Both the position numbers and the translations under genes were made by a program. A stretch of 64,000 nucleotides of DNA. Source: an uncultured virus (IMG/VR IMGVR_UViG_3300048919_000076) (Duplodnaviria > Heunggongvirae > Uroviricota > Caudoviricetes). Below are positions 1 to 48,558 of this stretch, piece by piece. The notes beneath the pieces were generated by a model. That model saw only the letters and a program-made list of their open reading frames with translations, ran no database searches and was not told where the DNA came from. Every line of letters begins with the position of its first letter. Within the stretch, counting starts at the first letter, position 1. Location of the stretch: IMG/VR virus record IMGVR_UViG_3300048919_000076; one strand, given 5' to 3'.

Positions 1-320
1 ATAATATTACTGTAGGGCAACAAGTGTTTGATGCTTTCTGGGAAGCAGCAGCACCTTTGAACAAACTGAAGAAACGTCTGTCTGAGTATTGGGAACGACA
101 GGGGGGTAAGAAATTCATTCTTGGTATCGACGGGCGTAAGGTTCCAACACGCTCTGCACATGCAATCTTAAACTCTTTGTTCCAGTCAGCAGGAGTCATA
201 TGCGCTAAAAGAGCAATGGTGATTCATGATCGTAAACTTAAGGCAGAGGGATTAGCAGTAGACTTTTTTAAAGACGATTGGAAGAATAAATCTTTCTGCC
301 AGCAAATGATTGCCTACCAT
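1..320 (+). CDS. Family A DNA polymerase, upstream exon (5' partial)
   Basis: Frame is open from the window start. Contains GIDGRK and LNSLFQSAGVICAK. Ends at ...MIAYH, the His of motif C (HDE). Confidence 0.93.
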
Positions 321-560
321 AAATAATTGTGGCCTTGCATTGTGAAGTGCATTGAATAACCTGTTGAATTCGGGGAAAGCTAAAGCGAGAGCCATGCCAA
401 TCCCGAGCGAAGCCTAAGAGTCTTTAGGAACGTGTAACGACTATCCCGTAAGGGAGTAGGATGCAAGCGCATTCGAAGCGGCAGGGGACTCTATGAGTCC
501 GTGATATAGTCTGATTCTCCGTGAAAGCGGAGTGAGTTTAGCGAACTCAATAACTGAATG
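321..560 (+). ncRNA. Group I self-splicing intron (240 nt, no ORF) in the DNA polymerase gene
   Basis: Upstream exon ends in U and the intron ends in G. P1 CCAU/GUGG has the U.G pair. P AAUUCGGGGAA 367-377, Q AAUCCCGAGC 399-408, P7 GACUA 439-443/UAGUC 507-511, P3 CCUGUU/GGCAGG. Splicing restores AYH-DEAQ in frame. Confidence 0.95.
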
Positions 561-44771: not shown

Positions 44772-47300
44772 TTATGAAACATAAAGGTCCCCCAAAGTGC
44801 TTGTAAAAAAGTTCCAAGTAGCATTAGGGTTTGTTGATCCAATAGGTGTAGCCTTCAATTGTGAAGAGGCGTCAATAGACCATGTGAACGATGGGAATGT
44901 TCCACCAGCACCAGTTAGAAGCCCAACAGCACTGACAGTTACCAATTGAGGAGCAAGAGACGTGGCTCCCTTAGCTACCTGAAGGATGTAGTGTGCTGTC
45001 TCAGAAGCATTTGCATCGACTTGTTTAACTGTAATGAACAATACACCGGAAAAGTTGGTTGCTGTACCATCTTGTGAAACACAAGTACCAACCACGTTTC
45101 CGGTGGTTGTCAGGTTCTTGGAGATTGTCTGTGATGCAGTGTTGATCCTTTTAGATGAATAGTCCCTACGTGCTGTGCTGTTCTCGTCACGATTACCCAC
45201 ACCAGTGATAAAATCATAGGAAGTTCCCAGTGGGACGTTAACGGTGTTATACCTTGCTCTTGCTCCTTTGGAACCCTCAGAGTCAGTGGAGATAGATATC
45301 CCAGATGCCCCAGCAACGCCTGAGTGTAGATAACAGCCCTCAACAATAGCCTTACCTTTGTTTACCCTAATACCAGACCCATTGAATTGGTATGCTGTTA
45401 CGTCTTTTACAACAACATCAGGAAGAAGCTCAAGACCTCCAGTGGGGGAGATGTCACCTGTGACATCTGCCACGTTGTTCAGGAATGCACTAGTAATCAT
45501 GTAGGCATTAGCCTTACTACCTACGGCAGAGCAGTTCTCAATGCTTGCATTTTGAGCGCCGTATACCGAGAACGAATGTGATCCGGAGGTGGGGTTCCTC
45601 TCTATAATATCAACACCGCGCATGACAACATGCTCGTGGTAGCCGCCAGAGGCCGCCGCGATAATAGCCACACCTGTTGCGGAGCCGGCTGCTGGTACAT
45701 CACCTACACTGAGGGCAGACGGAAGAACTTCAATATTACTGGCGATACCACACTTGTACAAACGATGAGTACCTGTGAAAGCACCAATAGTTTTGTAAGT
45801 ACCTGTGATAGCATCTTCCTTGGTTTCAGCTACTTTAATAGTGTTAGCGTCAACTACAATAGCGAAATAGTAATTGGCCCGTCCAAAACCAGTAATCGCT
45901 GTGTTGTTCTGGCGGGAGTAAATTAAAGGGTAACCTGTAGTCAATCCGTGCGCTGTCAGGGTGAGAGCATTTGCGGAAGATGTGGTAAAATCGTATTTAC
46001 CTAAAGTGTATGGCTCTATACCAATAACTTCACGCATAGTGTCGGTAGAGAACACCTGCATACTACCATGATCTACGTTCCCATATTGAAGGCCGAAGTT
46101 ACCGCCTTTCTCACAGATAAGTTTTCCATAGCAGTTAGTGGACGGTCTGTTATATGGATAAAAAGCACTAACGCCTACGGCTCCACCCAAAGCAGTGCCA
46201 TCTGAAATTACTTTCAAATCTAGGAATAGACCATCTGTATTATCTAGCAATATACCATGTTCGGCATGAGTACCAATACGAGCTACAGTGAATCCCTTCA
46301 AGGATATGTTCTTAAGTCTTGGTCCAGTGAATGGGCTTGCAAAGAACAGCTTACCAGAAGATGGAAACTTACAATAGATTACAGGTGAATAAGTGTCATC
46401 CCCTAATATATCCATTGAAGACCACGCATGTATTGTATCAGTGATCATGTACTTCTTGTTTCTTTTAAGCTTGATTGGTAAGCCCGAAGCTTCAGCTGCA
46501 AGGAAGGCTGGTGTACAATCCGTACCAATCTGGGTATCTGGGTCATAGTCACCAACTGCACCAAACAATTCAATAGGCACACGAGAGTCACCAAGTATGG
46601 AGTAAATAGTGGCTGGTGTGCCATCAAGATCAATACCGATCAAGGCTGCGCCTTTTAAATGATCGGAGTTGTTGGATAGATCTGCGATATCAGCTTTAGT
46701 AGAAAGAAGCCCTTCAGTATACACAGCACTAGCTTCAGCGGCATTAGCCGAATCCAAAGAATCCTGTGCAGATGTGGAAGCTTCAGTAGCCTTAGTGGTA
46801 GATACACCCGCAAAAGTACTAGCAGATGATGCACTATTAGCCGAGTTAGTTGCAGAGGTTTGACTTGCTACCGCTGACGTTTGAGAGGCTATTGCACTAT
46901 TGGCACTGGCGGTAGCACTGTTAGTAGAATTCGTAGCTGATATAGCAGCAGCATTCTTACTAGCCAATGCAGCAGCAGCGTTAGCTGCAACTTGAGCTAC
47001 TAAAGGATCACTCCCAGCAGTTTGCCCAACCATCAACAGAGCGTTAATAGTTGTCTCTGTTGTATCATCTGTAATTTCAATATTACCAATGCTTGTAAAT
47101 GCATGGTAATCATTTACGAATACACTTACTTTATACCAACCATTAGGAACATCAATCTCGTATTCCCCGTCAATGTCTGTCTTAAAATCTTTAGTGACAA
47201 ACATCAAGACATCGGGAGATGTATTATTAGCTGTAATCCGTACAAGTGAGTTTGAATATGGAACACCTGTAGGGGTTAGAAGAATACCTGAAAGAATCAT
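44772..47300 (-). CDS. Tail spike/fibre with putative beta-helix depolymerase domain
   Basis: Stf-like N-terminus (LSGIL..P.G.P), Ala/Ser stalk, FGAVGD...GTD.T.AF, repeating beta-strand pattern. Confidence 0.8.
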   Translation of the reverse strand: MILSGILLTPTGVPYSNSLVRITANNTSPDVLMFVTKDFKTDIDGEYEIDVPNGWYKVSVFVNDYHAFTSIGNIEITDDTTETTINALLMVGQTAGSDPLVAQVAANAAAALASKNAAAISATNSTNSATASANSAIASQTSAVASQTSATNSANSASSASTFAGVSTTKATEASTSAQDSLDSANAAEASAVYTEGLLSTKADIADLSNNSDHLKGAALIGIDLDGTPATIYSILGDSRVPIELFGAVGDYDPDTQIGTDCTPAFLAAEASGLPIKLKRNKKYMITDTIHAWSSMDILGDDTYSPVIYCKFPSSGKLFFASPFTGPRLKNISLKGFTVARIGTHAEHGILLDNTDGLFLDLKVISDGTALGGAVGVSAFYPYNRPSTNCYGKLICEKGGNFGLQYGNVDHGSMQVFSTDTMREVIGIEPYTLGKYDFTTSSANALTLTAHGLTTGYPLIYSRQNNTAITGFGRANYYFAIVVDANTIKVAETKEDAITGTYKTIGAFTGTHRLYKCGIASNIEVLPSALSVGDVPAAGSATGVAIIAAASGGYHEHVVMRGVDIIERNPTSGSHSFSVYGAQNASIENCSAVGSKANAYMITSAFLNNVADVTGDISPTGGLELLPDVVVKDVTAYQFNGSGIRVNKGKAIVEGCYLHSGVAGASGISISTDSEGSKGARARYNTVNVPLGTSYDFITGVGNRDENSTARRDYSSKRINTASQTISKNLTTTGNVVGTCVSQDGTATNFSGVLFITVKQVDANASETAHYILQVAKGATSLAPQLVTVSAVGLLTGAGGTFPSFTWSIDASSQLKATPIGSTNPNATWNFFTSTLGDLYVS

Positions 47301-47414
47301 ATTGTCCCTACTGAATGATTGTGATAAATCACATATTGTTTTAATTGAATTTTCTAAATCATTCTGGCAAGACTACTTGCAATAATATCAATGGATAACA
47401 AAATGATTAAGAAA

Positions 47415-47521
47415 ATATTCTCTTAAGCGAGGAGAGAGACACTTAAGAGAATATGAAAGACAAGCTGATAGGAGAGGATCAGTTATCTTTAAGATCCGGC
47501 ATAGAGGAGGAGAGACGCCGG
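47415..47521. ncRNA. Candidate small RNA with three hairpins sharing AGGAGAG(+)/CUCUCCU(-) loops
   Basis: Stems at 47415-47454, 47456-47490 and 47496-47521, each with the same loop motif. Confidence 0.6.
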
Positions 47522-47567
47522 GAGGAACACACCTTTCTAGAATTTGACCTTCGTGGTGTGGTGAAAC

Positions 47568-47651
47568 TGGTGCGGAACGTAAGACTCGAACTTACACGTC
47601 TTTCGACAGCAGTTTCTAAGACTGCCATGGCTACCATTACATCAGTTCCGC
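47568..47651 (-). tRNA. tRNA-Leu(TAG)
   Basis: GCGGAAC/GTTCCGC acceptor stem, encoded CCA, anticodon arm GCAGT-CTTAGAA-ACTGC, long variable arm, TTCGA. Confidence 0.95.
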
Positions 47652-47655
47652 AAAT

Positions 47656-47731
47656 TGGTCTAAGCGGCAGGGATCGAACCTGCGAGTACTCGGTTCCAAA
47701 CCGAGACGATTACCACTTTCGCTACGCTTAG
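47656..47731 (-). tRNA. tRNA-Pro(TGG)
   Basis: CTAAGCG/CGCTTAG acceptor stem, encoded CCA, anticodon arm CTCGG-TTTGGAA-CCGAG, GTTCGA. Confidence 0.95.
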
Positions 47732-47789
47732 ATAAAACTTAAAATAGATGCTCTGCTCACCTTCCCAACCCACAGACACTTCGGGAAGC

Positions 47790-47838
47790 TACGCGACCTA
47801 ATAAGGTTTCGACTTATTACAAAGTCTCATCAGGCGTA
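47790..47838 (-). ncRNA. Type I hammerhead ribozyme
   Basis: UACGC CUGAUGA GACUU-uguaau-AAGUC GAAA CCU-uauu-AGG UC^GCGUA; full core, all three stems and a GUC triplet. Confidence 0.9.
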
Positions 47839-47964
47839 TTAAATAAGTGTGTCTGACTGGATACCTACTTGCAGAGCGGTGGTATCGTACGCTCGTAAAT
47901 TAATGCTGGTGTTGTTTATCTCGTCTTTATCACGAGGTGGCAGAATCCAGCAACTGCGCATTCT

Positions 47965-48225
47965 TTAACAAGTGATCTGAACAGGACTTTGAAAGTCTGT
48001 CAACTTCCACTGTTTGAAGTAGTCTGAAGGATACACCCGAGTAGGTATGTCACCAACCCCTACGAATACTTCTTTGTTACAATCAGGTGTACGCACTGGC
48101 GTGACTTTATCAAACACAAGCTTCAAATGATCTTTAATAATCAACCATTGTTTTTCAGAGATGGTGTCTGTGTCGGATAGTTCTATGAAGCCTTGGAGCC
48201 AATATGTGAAGCTTTCAGAATTCAT
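47965..48225 (-). CDS. Hypothetical protein
   Basis: GGAG RBS; F.YWLQGF.E...QW..IKDHL.LVF.KVTP. Confidence 0.8.
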   Translation of the reverse strand: MNSESFTYWLQGFIELSDTDTISEKQWLIIKDHLKLVFDKVTPVRTPDCNKEVFVGVGDIPTRVYPSDYFKQWKLTDFQSPVQITC

Positions 48226-48261
48226 GGTTTTCTCCGCCCAGTTCTCGACTGGATATACTTG

Positions 48262-48290
48262 ATTATTGCACGTTTTAGGTTAGTTGTCAA
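48262..48290 (-). promoter_or_regulatory. Sigma70-like promoter facing the ORF-hammerhead-tRNA unit
   Basis: TTGACA-17 nt-AATAAT with TG extension. Confidence 0.65.
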
Positions 48291-48296
48291 CAACTA

Positions 48297-48473
48297 TTAT
48301 TCGTATTTAGGTAAAATAGTCTTATAAACACTGAAATCAGGGTCTGTTAGTGATTCAAACTGATATTCCATCCGAAACACTTCAATACTATCTTCCAAAT
48401 ATTCTACTTCAATATCACATACACAATAATTATTAATACGCCCACATTGTGAGCAAAAGCAAATCTCGCCCAT
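48297..48473 (-). CDS. 58-aa Cys-containing protein (not in ORF track)
   Basis: GGAG RBS; MGEICFCSQCGR...; TTGACA upstream near 48539. Confidence 0.6.
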   Translation of the reverse strand: MGEICFCSQCGRINNYCVCDIEVEYLEDSIEVFRMEYQFESLTDPDFSVYKTILPKYE

Positions 48474-48558
48474 AATGTGGACTCCGTTAGTTGTTTCTCA
48501 AGTTCATGTAGTAAAACACAATTGAGCTCGTTCTGTCAAGGTTTTAGGAAAATAAATA

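What the first reader, a model, noticed from the sequence alone, without database searches (positions are those of the whole stretch)
47750..47877. Hammerhead ribozyme 63 nt upstream of the phage tRNA pair
Seen (minus strand): a complete hammerhead core with predicted cleavage after GUC between 47795 and 47794. Stem I extends through ACACUU/AAGUGU, CAGAC/GUCUG and GCUCUGC/GCAGAGC, with extra CUUCCC/GGGAAG and GAUACC/GGUAUC pairings that could form pseudoknots or a switch. It is co-oriented with a promoter (48290), an ORF, tRNA-Pro, tRNA-Leu and the CU-loop RNA. Established: HDV-like theta ribozymes process phage tRNA 3' ends. Inference: here a hammerhead releases the tRNA/sRNA precursor from the mRNA on the 5' side.
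Basis: partly seen in the sequence, partly recalled or inferred. Interest (0 to 1): 0.82.

Follow-up and report, generated by a model that had tools for sequence, protein, structure and literature searches.

The report
Hammerhead ribozyme inside knotted phage RNA
The flagged stretch is a genuine self-cutting hammerhead ribozyme built into a conserved, doubly knotted small RNA that many unrelated phages carry and no catalogue lists, and its position next to two tRNA genes here is a local accident rather than its purpose.

Summary
Observation confirmed. On the minus strand, 47895-47747 holds a complete type I hammerhead, with cleavage predicted after C47795, 63 nt before tRNA-Pro.

The sequence belongs to a roughly 135-150-nt module found in Klebsiella and Escherichia phages of at least four unrelated groups and in many uncultured viral contigs. 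On 43 aligned copies, 93% of cells are paired, against 32-44% when partners are slid. 32 of 40 pairs show compensatory changes. In the catalytic core only the free position N7 varies, and the cleavage-site base is C, U or A, never G.

The topology is a nested double pseudoknot, with the hammerhead sitting in a loop of the second knot. Seven distinct copies have the scaffold but no hammerhead.

The tRNA link is not general. Two complete relatives of this phage keep the module but lack the tRNAs. The helices that join the two cleavage products (about -25 kcal/mol) argue for a nick rather than a release.

No Rfam hammerhead model reaches its threshold, and six literature searches found no description. 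This scan noted the same RNA before on other DNA.

It is a new variant of a known kind. Its function is untested.

The parts
47747..47895 (-). Whole module: hammerhead embedded in a nested double-pseudoknot scaffold. It is the full-length match to covariance model R1.
   Evidence: 118 bits, E 1.6e-25, the only hit in the window; covariation.
47887..47894 (-). Conserved single-stranded 5' element GAGCGUAC (family consensus GAGC-R-UAC).
   Evidence: Nearly invariant columns in A2 and A3.
47881..47886 (-). Helix a, 5' strand (GAUACC).
   Evidence: helix a is 97.9% paired and 5 of 6 pairs show compensatory changes.
47871..47877 (-). Helix b, 5' strand (GCUCUGC). It lies in the loop of hairpin a, which makes the first pseudoknot.
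   Evidence: helix b is 97.6% paired and 7 of 7 pairs show compensatory changes.
47866..47870 (-). Conserved linker AAGUA between b and a'.
   Evidence: Invariant or nearly invariant columns.
47860..47865 (-). Helix a, 3' strand (GGUAUC).
47849..47855 (-). Helix c, 5' strand (CAGACAC). This is the distal extension of stem I.
   Evidence: a contiguous helix of 6-12 bp in 32 of 32 copies; 86.2% paired and 8 of 8 pairs show compensatory changes.
47834..47838 (-). Hammerhead stem I, 5' strand (UACGC).
   Evidence: 92.9% paired and nearly invariant. L017 shows the compensated form UAUGC/GCAUA.
47827..47833 (-). Hammerhead core CUGAUGA (C3 to A9).
   Evidence: CUGAUGA in 36, CUGACGA in 2 and CUGAAGA in 1 of 39 copies. 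Only N7 varies.
47811..47826 (-). Stem II (GACUU/AAGUC) with loop UGUAAU. The G10.1-C11.1 pair is present.
   Evidence: three of the four counted pairs show compensatory changes.
47807..47810 (-). Core GAAA (G12, A13, A14, A15.1).
   Evidence: 39 of 39.
47795..47807 (-). Stem III (ACCU/AGGU, loop UAUU) and the cleavage-site base C17 at 47795. The predicted cut is between 47795 and 47794.
   Evidence: H17 is C in 19, U in 10, A in 10 and G in 0 of 39; helix III is 100% paired.
47789..47794 (-). GCGUAG: stem I 3' strand and first bases of the 3' product. It is retained in copies that lack the hammerhead.
   Evidence: GCGUAG in 37 of 43 rows; present in hammerhead-less copies.
47783..47788 (-). 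Helix d, 5' strand (CUUCCC).
   Evidence: 93.5% paired and 6 of 6 pairs show compensatory changes.
47773..47779 (-). Helix c, 3' strand (GUGUCUG). It lies in the loop of hairpin d, which makes the second pseudoknot.
47761..47766 (-). Helix d, 3' strand (GGGAAG).
47757..47760 (-). Conserved junction GUGA between d' and b'.
   Evidence: Nearly invariant columns.
47750..47756 (-). Helix b, 3' strand (GCAGAGC). It closes the module.
47656..47731 (-). tRNA-Pro(UGG). Context only: it starts 15 nt after the end of the module match.
47568..47651 (-). tRNA-Leu(UAG). Context only.
48262..48290 (-). Sigma-70-like promoter upstream of the 86-aa ORF. Context only.
   Evidence: 11 of 12 matches with a TG extension.
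47965..48225 (-). 86-aa ORF of a phage protein family of unknown function. Context only.
   Evidence: phrog_28500, E 1.2e-17.

Best explanation
The region encodes a type I hammerhead self-cleaving ribozyme that is one part of a self-contained, conserved phage RNA module.

The module is a nested double pseudoknot. The strand order is a, b, a', c, [stem I - core - II - III - stem I'], d, c', d', b'. Hairpin a carries strand b in its loop. Strand b pairs with b' at the far 3' end. Inside that closure, helix c and hairpin d form a second H-type pseudoknot. The hammerhead sits in the loop that joins c to d and uses the conserved GCGUAG as its stem I 3' strand.

The ribozyme should cut after C47795, leaving a 2',3'-cyclic phosphate and a 5'-OH. 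Helices b, c and I bridge the cut, so the product is most likely a nicked two-piece RNA and not two free RNAs. The scaffold is the primary element and the hammerhead is an optional add-on.

In this phage lineage the module lies between a small ORF and a CU-loop small RNA. The tRNA-Pro/tRNA-Leu pair is a later insertion beside it. Where a tRNA follows directly, RNase P probably sets the module's 3' end.

Shown by comparison: the fold, the conservation pattern and the modularity. Inferred: cleavage, the nicked state and any role.
For: - Core: the core is complete, with G10.1-C11.1.
- Spread: 19 Klebsiella or Escherichia phage records from Stephanstirmvirinae, Schitoviridae (Gamaleyavirus), Ackermannviridae (Taipeivirus) and 46-kb phages carry a homologous stretch. 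Further copies come from viral contigs.
- Diversity: the 43 aligned rows fall into 25 clusters at 85% identity.
- Covariation on A4: 93.0% of 1623 cells are paired, against 32-44% when partners are slid. 32 of 40 pairs have double changes. None of 500 shuffles reaches any measure. All seven helices are 85-100% paired. The same picture holds on MAFFT-only alignment A3 (91.7% against 31-42%).
- Ribozyme signature: only N7 varies in the core (3 of 39), GAAA is present in 39 of 39, and H17 is C19/U10/A10 and never G.
- Scaffold without hammerhead: seven distinct sequences score 55-73 bits with R1 and keep helices a, b, c and d through different base pairs (L015/L230, L018, L185, L235/L389, L395, L391, L392).
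- Bridging helices: duplex energies are -11.4 (b), -9.0 (c) and -4.7 (I) kcal/mol.
- tRNA cassette as an indel.
- tRNA directly after the module in independent lineages: 15 nt in the window, 3 nt in DP01, and 5 nt in L235/L389 and L395.
Against: - No cleavage or expression data exist. The one RNA run that shares words with the region covers only part of tRNA-Leu, with unlike flanks.
- No Rfam hammerhead model reaches its gathering score here or in 8 homologous loci.
- 22 of 39 family members lack a standard 10.1-11.1 pair (AA 10, UU 6, CA 5, GU 1), which may lower their activity. The window copy has G-C.
- Whether the four pseudoknot helices form together or alternate cannot be told from covariation.
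- A4 was aligned to the model's nested helices, which favours those helices. Helices a and d were not in the model, and the independent A3 count agrees.
- Sequences in the alignment are related, so shuffle counts are not probabilities.
- The 'nicked, not released' claim rests on nearest-neighbour energies only.
Confidence: 0.6

Rival explanations
1. The hammerhead exists to release the tRNA/sRNA precursor from the upstream mRNA, as a 5'-side counterpart of theta ribozymes at tRNA 3' ends.
For: - The promoter, ORF, module, two tRNAs and CU-loop RNA are co-oriented, and the consensus scan found no terminator in 47200-48500.
- In relatives G002 and G003 the module again precedes CU-loop hairpins.
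- Modules lie 3-15 nt before a tRNA in three or more lineages.
Against: - tRNAs are absent within 400 nt in 26 of 27 viral-contig loci and after the module in G002 and G003.
- In phage 05F01 the module follows the tRNAs.
- What follows the module is otherwise diverse. As I read the flanks printed, it is followed by terminator-like hairpins with U runs, ORF starts or other hairpins.
- The cut is 63 nt from the tRNA, so RNase P is still required and would suffice.
- Bridging helices oppose release.
- The scaffold exists without any ribozyme, twice directly before tRNA-Pro.
Confidence: 0.2
2. End-protection or insulator model. The knotted module, nicked by its ribozyme, caps the 3' end of the upstream message. 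The compact fold and 2',3'-cyclic phosphate would block 3' exonucleases and polyadenylation. The downstream RNA would start with a 5'-OH that 5'-monophosphate-dependent RNase E senses poorly.
For: - The module lies after an ORF here.
- As I read the flanks, a hairpin or terminator-like hairpin lies 3-12 nt upstream in most loci.
- After the cut, the 3' half stays paired to the 5' half.
Against: - Many copies lie after what look like complete intrinsic terminators, where little transcript would need a second cap.
- Hammerhead-less copies give no special end chemistry.
- No stability data exist.
Confidence: 0.12
3. Allosteric or partner-binding model. The double-pseudoknot scaffold is a sensor or binding site for a small molecule, protein or RNA. 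Where a hammerhead is present, the scaffold gates its activity.
For: - Single-stranded junctions are highly conserved (GAGC-R-UAC, AAGUA, GCGUAG, GUGA) while the helices vary freely. That is the usual pattern of a binding pocket.
- The scaffold is maintained without the ribozyme.
- Stem I shares its 3' strand with a scaffold element.
Against: - No gene is consistently associated that would suggest a ligand.
- There is no match to any riboswitch or other Rfam family at E up to 1-10.
- The idea is untested.
Confidence: 0.1
4. Chance resemblance or dead relic with no activity.
For: - The core string alone is not rare.
- Rfam scores are below threshold.
Against: Core conservation with variation only at N7, H17 never G, compensatory changes in all three hammerhead stems, and R1 at E 1.6e-25.
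Confidence: 0.03

Closest known systems
Type I hammerhead ribozymes of phages and prophages (Perreault et al. 2011, PMC3088659; I read passages only)
   Same: - Same catalytic core and three-stem layout with an open stem I.
- Phage intergenic setting.
- That paper reports that pseudoknots commonly stabilise hammerheads and that phage hammerheads flank genes.
   Different: - There, the pseudoknot links the stem I and stem II elements of the ribozyme itself. Here stem I runs into a roughly 100-nt nested double pseudoknot with conserved junctions, and that scaffold also occurs without any ribozyme.
- Rfam hammerhead models score it below threshold (23.4 against 52 bits).
- I saw no description of this scaffold in the passages read. 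I did not see the supplementary alignments.
HDV-like theta ribozymes next to phage tRNAs (Kienbeck et al. 2024, PMC10879173; I read passages only)
   Same: A small self-cleaving ribozyme beside phage tRNA genes, and the words 'nested double pseudoknot' apply to both.
   Different: - Different ribozyme class and helix order. HDV-like is P1, P2, P3, P3', P1', P4, P4', P2' (recalled). Here it is a, b, a', c, d, c', d', b'.
- Theta ribozymes sit at the tRNA 3' side and cut at the trailer.
- Here the cut is 63 nt upstream, and the tRNA link is present in only a few lineages.
- There is no HDV-family Rfam hit.
RAGATH-1 hammerhead (Rfam RF03152)
   Same: A hammerhead with an extra 5' hairpin. There is a weak full-length match of 17.9 bits.
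   Different: The score is far below its gathering score of 56.3, and the extra domain here is a double pseudoknot, not one hairpin.
Small stable RNAs in the phage T4 tRNA cluster (species 1 and 2; recalled, and named in an earlier scan note shown)
   Same: Phage small RNAs of unknown function that are co-transcribed with tRNAs and probably trimmed by tRNA-processing enzymes.
   Different: No sequence or fold relation was tested or expected. The T4 RNAs carry no ribozyme.

Membership tests
Hammerhead ribozyme | Catalytic core C3-U4-G5-A6-N7-G8-A9, G12-A13-A14, an A15.1-U16.1 pair and H17 (numbering recalled). | tested here: met
   CUGAUGA, GAAA, an A-U pair closing stem III and C17; the core is kept in 39 of 39 relatives, with variation only at N7.
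Hammerhead ribozyme | Three helices (I, II, III) around the core, maintained by compensatory change. | tested here: met
   stem I is 92.9%, II is 85.3% and III is 100% paired. Double changes occur in 2, 3 and 1 of their pairs.
Hammerhead ribozyme | The cleavage-site base is never G. | tested here: met
   C 19, U 10, A 10 and G 0 of 39.
Hammerhead ribozyme | Reaches the curated score of an Rfam hammerhead model. | tested here: not met
   the best is HH9 at 23.4 bits against 52; none in 8 homologous loci. The deficit comes from the peripheral parts; the core aligns fully.
Hammerhead ribozyme | Mg2+-dependent self-cleavage giving 2',3'-cyclic phosphate and 5'-OH ends. | not testable with these tools
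   No usable RNA reads were found.
Hammerhead ribozyme, type I | Stem I is open; stems II and III are closed by loops. | tested here: met
   and the R1 alignment.
HDV-like (theta) ribozyme | P1/P2/P3/P1.1/P4 nested double pseudoknot, with cleavage at the 5' edge of P1 directly after a tRNA. | tested here: not met
   The helix order differs, the element lies upstream of the tRNAs, and no HDV-family hit appears at E up to 10.
Phage double-pseudoknot scaffold (unnamed; defined here) | Helices a, b, c and d in the order a, b, a', c, d, c', d', b', with junctions GAGC-R-UAC, AAGUA, GCGUAG and GUGA. | tested here: met
   (118 bits).

The most novel reading that the evidence does not exclude
The roughly 100-nt nested double pseudoknot is a new, autonomous class of phage non-coding RNA with its own function, such as binding a host or phage factor or a small molecule. 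In most lineages it has recruited a hammerhead as a built-in device that nicks it. The tightly clamped ends might also allow re-ligation. If so, this would be a natural ribozyme whose product is a structured two-piece RNA, not a released transcript.
Probability: 0.35. Interest if true: 0.8.

Novelty: new variant of a known kind. Interest (0 to 1): 0.62.

Why it matters
Hammerheads are well known, but what they do in phages is still open. This case gives a well-defined, widespread variant with three useful properties:
- The ribozyme is fused to a conserved knotted RNA that also exists on its own.
- The cleavage products are clamped together.
- Cultured phages of laboratory-tractable hosts carry it, for example N4-like Escherichia phages and Klebsiella Taipeivirus phages, where it is unannotated or overlaid by 'hypothetical protein' calls.

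Together these make the in vivo role of a phage hammerhead directly testable. They also add a candidate new RNA family for the catalogues.

The case corrects a tempting reading as well. A ribozyme beside tRNA genes need not be a tRNA-processing device.

Tried and rejected
- Expression evidence. One search listed 24 runs and only one was RNA. When laid, its contigs covered only 47561-47660 (part of tRNA-Leu), with unlike flanking letters. This gives no evidence on transcription or cleavage.
- A mis-specified scaffold pattern returned at least 119 stretches, of which 80 loci were fetched. R1 confirmed only L071, an already known copy.
- Loose patterns were mostly chance: 3 of 80 and 16 of 80 fetched loci were real by R1.
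- The genome-contig scan for hammerhead-less scaffolds gave 12 hits, none real. R1 scored at most 14.4 bits. Ten hits are one GC-rich stretch shared by unrelated bacteria, which looks protein-coding to me (not tested). So this exact pattern finds no copy in species-representative bacterial genomes.
- blastn of the Escherichia-phage copy against 5,426 complete E. coli genomes gave no match.
- The minimum-free-energy fold of the module alone is uninformative (z -1.3), because pseudoknots are not modelled.
- I considered and set aside several identities for the scaffold: a known ribozyme class (twister, pistol, hatchet, HDV), a riboswitch or a tRNA-like element. No Rfam hit appears at E up to 10 on the window region or up to 1 on three hammerhead-less loci.
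- I considered a Shine-Dalgarno mimic in d'+GUGA. I rejected it because the purine run covaries with d and the sequence is not kept.
- The window's own assembly is not held, so I did not search the whole genome for further copies. The nearest record, G001, is identical over the 901 nt compared.

Full report
**1. What is in the sequence**

Read on the minus strand, 47895-47747 contains a textbook hammerhead core:
- CUGAUGA at 47833-47827
- a 5-bp stem II (GACUU/AAGUC) closed by a 6-nt loop, with the usual G10.1-C11.1 pair
- GAAA at 47810-47807
- a 4-bp stem III (ACCU/AGGU) with loop UAUU
- C17 at 47795
- stem I, UACGC/GCGUA

The hammerhead numbering and its rules are recalled knowledge. The predicted cut between 47795 and 47794 lies 63 nt before tRNA-Pro(UGG), which is followed by tRNA-Leu(UAG).

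The module extends 18 nt further 5' than the flagged coordinates.

Upstream lie a strong sigma-70-like promoter at 48290-48262 (11 of 12 matches with a TG extension) and an 86-aa ORF of a phage family of unknown function.

**2. Is it more than chance?**

The core string alone is not significant: 11 matches in the window against 6.5 expected. Rfam gives no hammerhead at gathering level. In a 601-nt search the best hits are Hammerhead_HH9 at 23.4 bits (threshold 52, E 0.0022) and RAGATH-1-hammerhead at 17.9 bits. The case therefore rests on comparison with relatives.

**3. Relatives**

blastn of 191 nt against GenBank phages found 21 records. 19 of them are Klebsiella or Escherichia phages aligned over the module. 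The other two are cyanophage hits at E 0.6, which is chance level.

The annotated records belong to several unrelated groups:
- Stephanstirmvirinae (05F01)
- Schitoviridae, genus Gamaleyavirus (PD205, VTCCBPA_322)
- Ackermannviridae, genus Taipeivirus (Magnus, MDA2066, UPM 2146, KZag1)
- 46-kb phages with no family assigned (DP01; KlebP_265 appears in the listing only)
- BaqKoxi (72 kb), whose record gives no lineage below 'Viruses'

In those records the stretch is unannotated or overlaid by short 'hypothetical protein' calls.

An 8-kb stretch of the window around the module matches GenBank phages only at the module and the tRNAs. The RNA is thus far better conserved than its surroundings.

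Two pattern scans of viral contigs added 11 and 27 stretches.

After removing duplicates I aligned 32 distinct sequences (A2 and A3). I left four loci out of these alignments:
- L032 and L042 are hammerheads with the same stem I and d hairpin but a different outer domain.
- L015 and L018 have no hammerhead.

**4. The fold**

Seven helices are supported. On the MAFFT-only alignment A3:
- 91.7% of 1272 cells form standard pairs, against 31-42% when the 3' partners are slid by 1-3 columns.
- 30 of 40 pairs show changes on both sides.
- None of 500 column shuffles reaches any observed measure.

I built covariance model R1 from A3, with only the nested helices b, c, I, II and III in its structure. 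It aligned 43 sequences (A4). On A4, with the two pseudoknot helices added by hand:
- 93.0% of 1623 cells are paired, against 32-44% slid.
- 32 of 40 pairs have double changes.
- Per helix, the share paired is a 97.9%, b 97.6%, c 86.2%, I 92.9%, II 85.3%, III 100% and d 93.5%.

Caveats:
- A4 leans towards the modelled helices. Helices a and d were not in the model, and A3 gives the same picture.
- The sequences are related to one another. They fall into 25 clusters at 85% identity.

Helix c was misaligned in the first MAFFT alignment, where only 34% of cells paired. A per-sequence script found a contiguous helix of 6-12 bp in 32 of 32 copies, with a mean of 9.0 against 5.1 after shuffling.

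The strand order is a, b, a', c, [I, core, II, III, I'], d, c', d', b'. Strand b lies in the loop of hairpin a and pairs with the far 3' end. Strand c' lies in the loop of hairpin d. This gives two H-type pseudoknots, the second nested inside the closure made by b/b'.

By recalled rules of thumb, the loop lengths appear compatible with all helices forming at once:
- 3 nt across b
- 5-7 nt across c
- 1-3 nt between d and c'

Covariation cannot distinguish that from a switch between alternative folds.

**5. Signature of a working ribozyme**

Among 39 hammerhead-bearing rows:
- The core reads CUGAUGA in 36, CUGACGA in 2 and CUGAAGA in 1. The only variable position is N7, the one core position known to be free.
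- GAAA is present in 39 of 39.
- The cleavage-site base is C in 19, U in 10 and A in 10. It is never G, as the hammerhead rule requires.
- Stem I is almost invariant (UACGC/GCGUAG), but L017 shows the compensated pair UAUGC/GCAUAG.

One point counts against high activity in some relatives. The 10.1-11.1 position is a standard G-C in only 17 of 39 (AA 10, UU 6, CA 5, GU 1). The window copy has G-C.

**6. The scaffold also exists without the ribozyme**

R1 finds copies in which helix c runs through 0-3 linker bases straight into GCGUAG and helix d, with no hammerhead. These are:
- L015 (also fetched as L230)
- L018
- L185
- L235 (the same contig as L389)
- L395
- L391
- L392

That makes seven distinct sequences. 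They score 55-73 bits and keep helices a, b, c and d through different base pairs.

L015 has a 5' domain identical to that of the hammerhead-bearing L017. Gain or loss of the ribozyme is therefore recent.

GCGUAG is retained without its stem I partner, so it has a role in the scaffold itself. This explains why stem I hardly varies. I therefore read the hammerhead as an optional insertion in loop 1 of the c/d pseudoknot.

**7. Context, and the tRNA question**

tRNAs are not a general neighbour. Of 27 viral-contig loci with 400-nt flanks, only 1 has tRNAs, a DP01-like locus. None lies within 1.5 kb in the four Taipeivirus loci or in VTCCBPA_322.

Where tRNAs do occur, the arrangement varies:
- The module lies 15 nt (window), 3 nt (DP01) or 5 nt (L235/L389 and L395, both hammerhead-less and both before tRNA-Pro(UGG)) upstream of a tRNA.
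- In 05F01 it lies directly downstream of a six-tRNA array that includes Pro(UGG) and Leu(UAG).
- In BaqKoxi and L280/L323 it lies 200-700 nt from tRNAs.

Two complete genomes related to this phage are decisive for this locus:
- G002 matches the ORF and module at 94% identity up to 4 nt before tRNA-Pro. It resumes at the tail-fibre gene. In between it has 253 nt holding CU-loop hairpins and no tRNA.
- G003 has the module at 91% identity, then 126 nt of other sequence, then CU-loop hairpins, and again no tRNA.

The tRNA pair is therefore an inserted cassette. The conserved neighbour in this lineage is the CU-loop RNA.

Elsewhere, as I read the flanks printed, the module is followed by terminator-like hairpins with U runs, ORF starts or other small hairpins. 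It is usually preceded by a hairpin or terminator 3-12 nt upstream. I did not run the terminator scan on those flanks.

I found no copy in 5,426 E. coli genomes. The exact scaffold pattern found no real copy in species-representative bacterial genomes.

**8. How it most likely works**

Shown: the fold, the conservation pattern and the modularity.

Inferred: co-transcriptional self-cleavage after C47795, giving a 5' piece that ends in a cyclic phosphate and a 3' piece that begins with a 5'-OH at GCGUAG.

Helices b (-11.4 kcal/mol), c (-9.0) and stem I (-4.7) all join the two pieces. I therefore expect a nicked complex rather than release. Where a tRNA follows within a few bases, RNase P would define the module's 3' end, by the established role of RNase P.

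The ultimate function of the scaffold is unknown. The rivals are:
- an end-protection or insulator role
- a binding or allosteric role

They are scored in their own sections.

**9. Comparison with what is known**

By its core and stems this is a type I hammerhead, but it fails every Rfam hammerhead threshold because of its periphery.

It is not an HDV-like or theta ribozyme. The class, the helix order and the side of the tRNA all differ. In the passages I read, that paper itself only postulates tRNA 3'-trailer processing.

In Perreault et al. 2011 (passages read), pseudoknots link the stem I and stem II elements, and phage hammerheads flank genes. I saw no double-pseudoknot scaffold there. I did not read its supplementary alignments.

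Six full-text searches found no description of this RNA. I judged them from the listings, plus passages of two papers.

This scan noted the same hammerhead-plus-double-pseudoknot RNA on other DNA before (e1-5796997 and e1-1922454). It also noted a CU-loop RNA that follows a hammerhead (e1-6066103). Those are unchecked notes, not independent evidence. My own counts agree with them.

**10. Verdict**

It is a new variant of a known kind, attached to what may be a new RNA family. Interest is 0.62.

Noticed in passing
window 47409-47527, minus strand: Directly after tRNA-Leu lie three hairpins whose loops are rich in CUCC/CCUCC, which looks like the anti-Shine-Dalgarno sequence. The last hairpin (about 47453-47416) is followed by a U run and looks like the terminator of the unit. 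There is a weak Rfam match to alphaproteobacterial ar14 (24 bits against 58.8, E 0.021). Similar CU-loop hairpins follow the module in relatives G002 and G003, which have no tRNAs.
   Followed up: partly
window 260-533, plus strand: Group I intron: Rfam RF00028, 68.4 bits, E 3.1e-15, full-length model match.
   Followed up: no
window 47734-47321 compared with G002 (locus L385): The tRNA-Pro/tRNA-Leu/CU-loop block is an indel relative to a complete 87-kb relative. Similarity stops 4 nt before tRNA-Pro and resumes at the tail-fibre gene. The relative has 253 nt of other sequence there.
   Followed up: yes
L004, L005, L007, L009 (Taipeivirus), L006 (DP01), L022, L035, L039, L042: A small hairpin of the form GCCGG, 9-10-nt loop, CCGGC, then CAYCAC lies just before the module in Taipeivirus phages and DP01. 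It recurs just after the module in Taipeivirus, L022, L035 and L039, like a flanking repeat. A second recurring hairpin with a GAAAGA loop follows other copies (L023, L029, L040, L043, L044). A similar hairpin, CUCG-UGAUAAAGA-CGAG, lies about 25 nt upstream of the module in the window (around 47934-47918). I saw these by eye.
   Followed up: no
L032 and L042 (viral contigs): Hammerheads with the same stem I (UACGC/GCGUAG or GCGUAU) and a d-like hairpin, but without the a/b domain (R1 partial matches of 43 and 38 bits). This suggests three parts that combine separately: the hammerhead, the c/d knot and the a/b knot.
   Followed up: partly
L004 2589-2802 (Klebsiella phage MDA2066): Rfam STnc100 sRNA match just above threshold (48.7 bits against 47). 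It lies in a roughly 3-kb stretch with no annotated gene that also holds the module. Similar gene-free stretches surround the module in UPM 2146 and the N4-like phages.
   Followed up: no
window 47839-47961, minus strand: A 40-aa ORF overlaps the 5' half of the module. The bases there are constrained by RNA helices a, b and c, so it is probably not a gene. In several GenBank phages similar short ORFs are annotated over the module.
   Followed up: no
L235/L389 and L395 (metagenome and viral contigs): Hammerhead-less scaffolds end 5 nt before tRNA-Pro(UGG), the same tRNA species that follows the module in the window. Phage 05F01 has Pro(UGG) and Leu(UAG) in the array just before its module. This could be coincidence or a shared cassette history.
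   Followed up: partly
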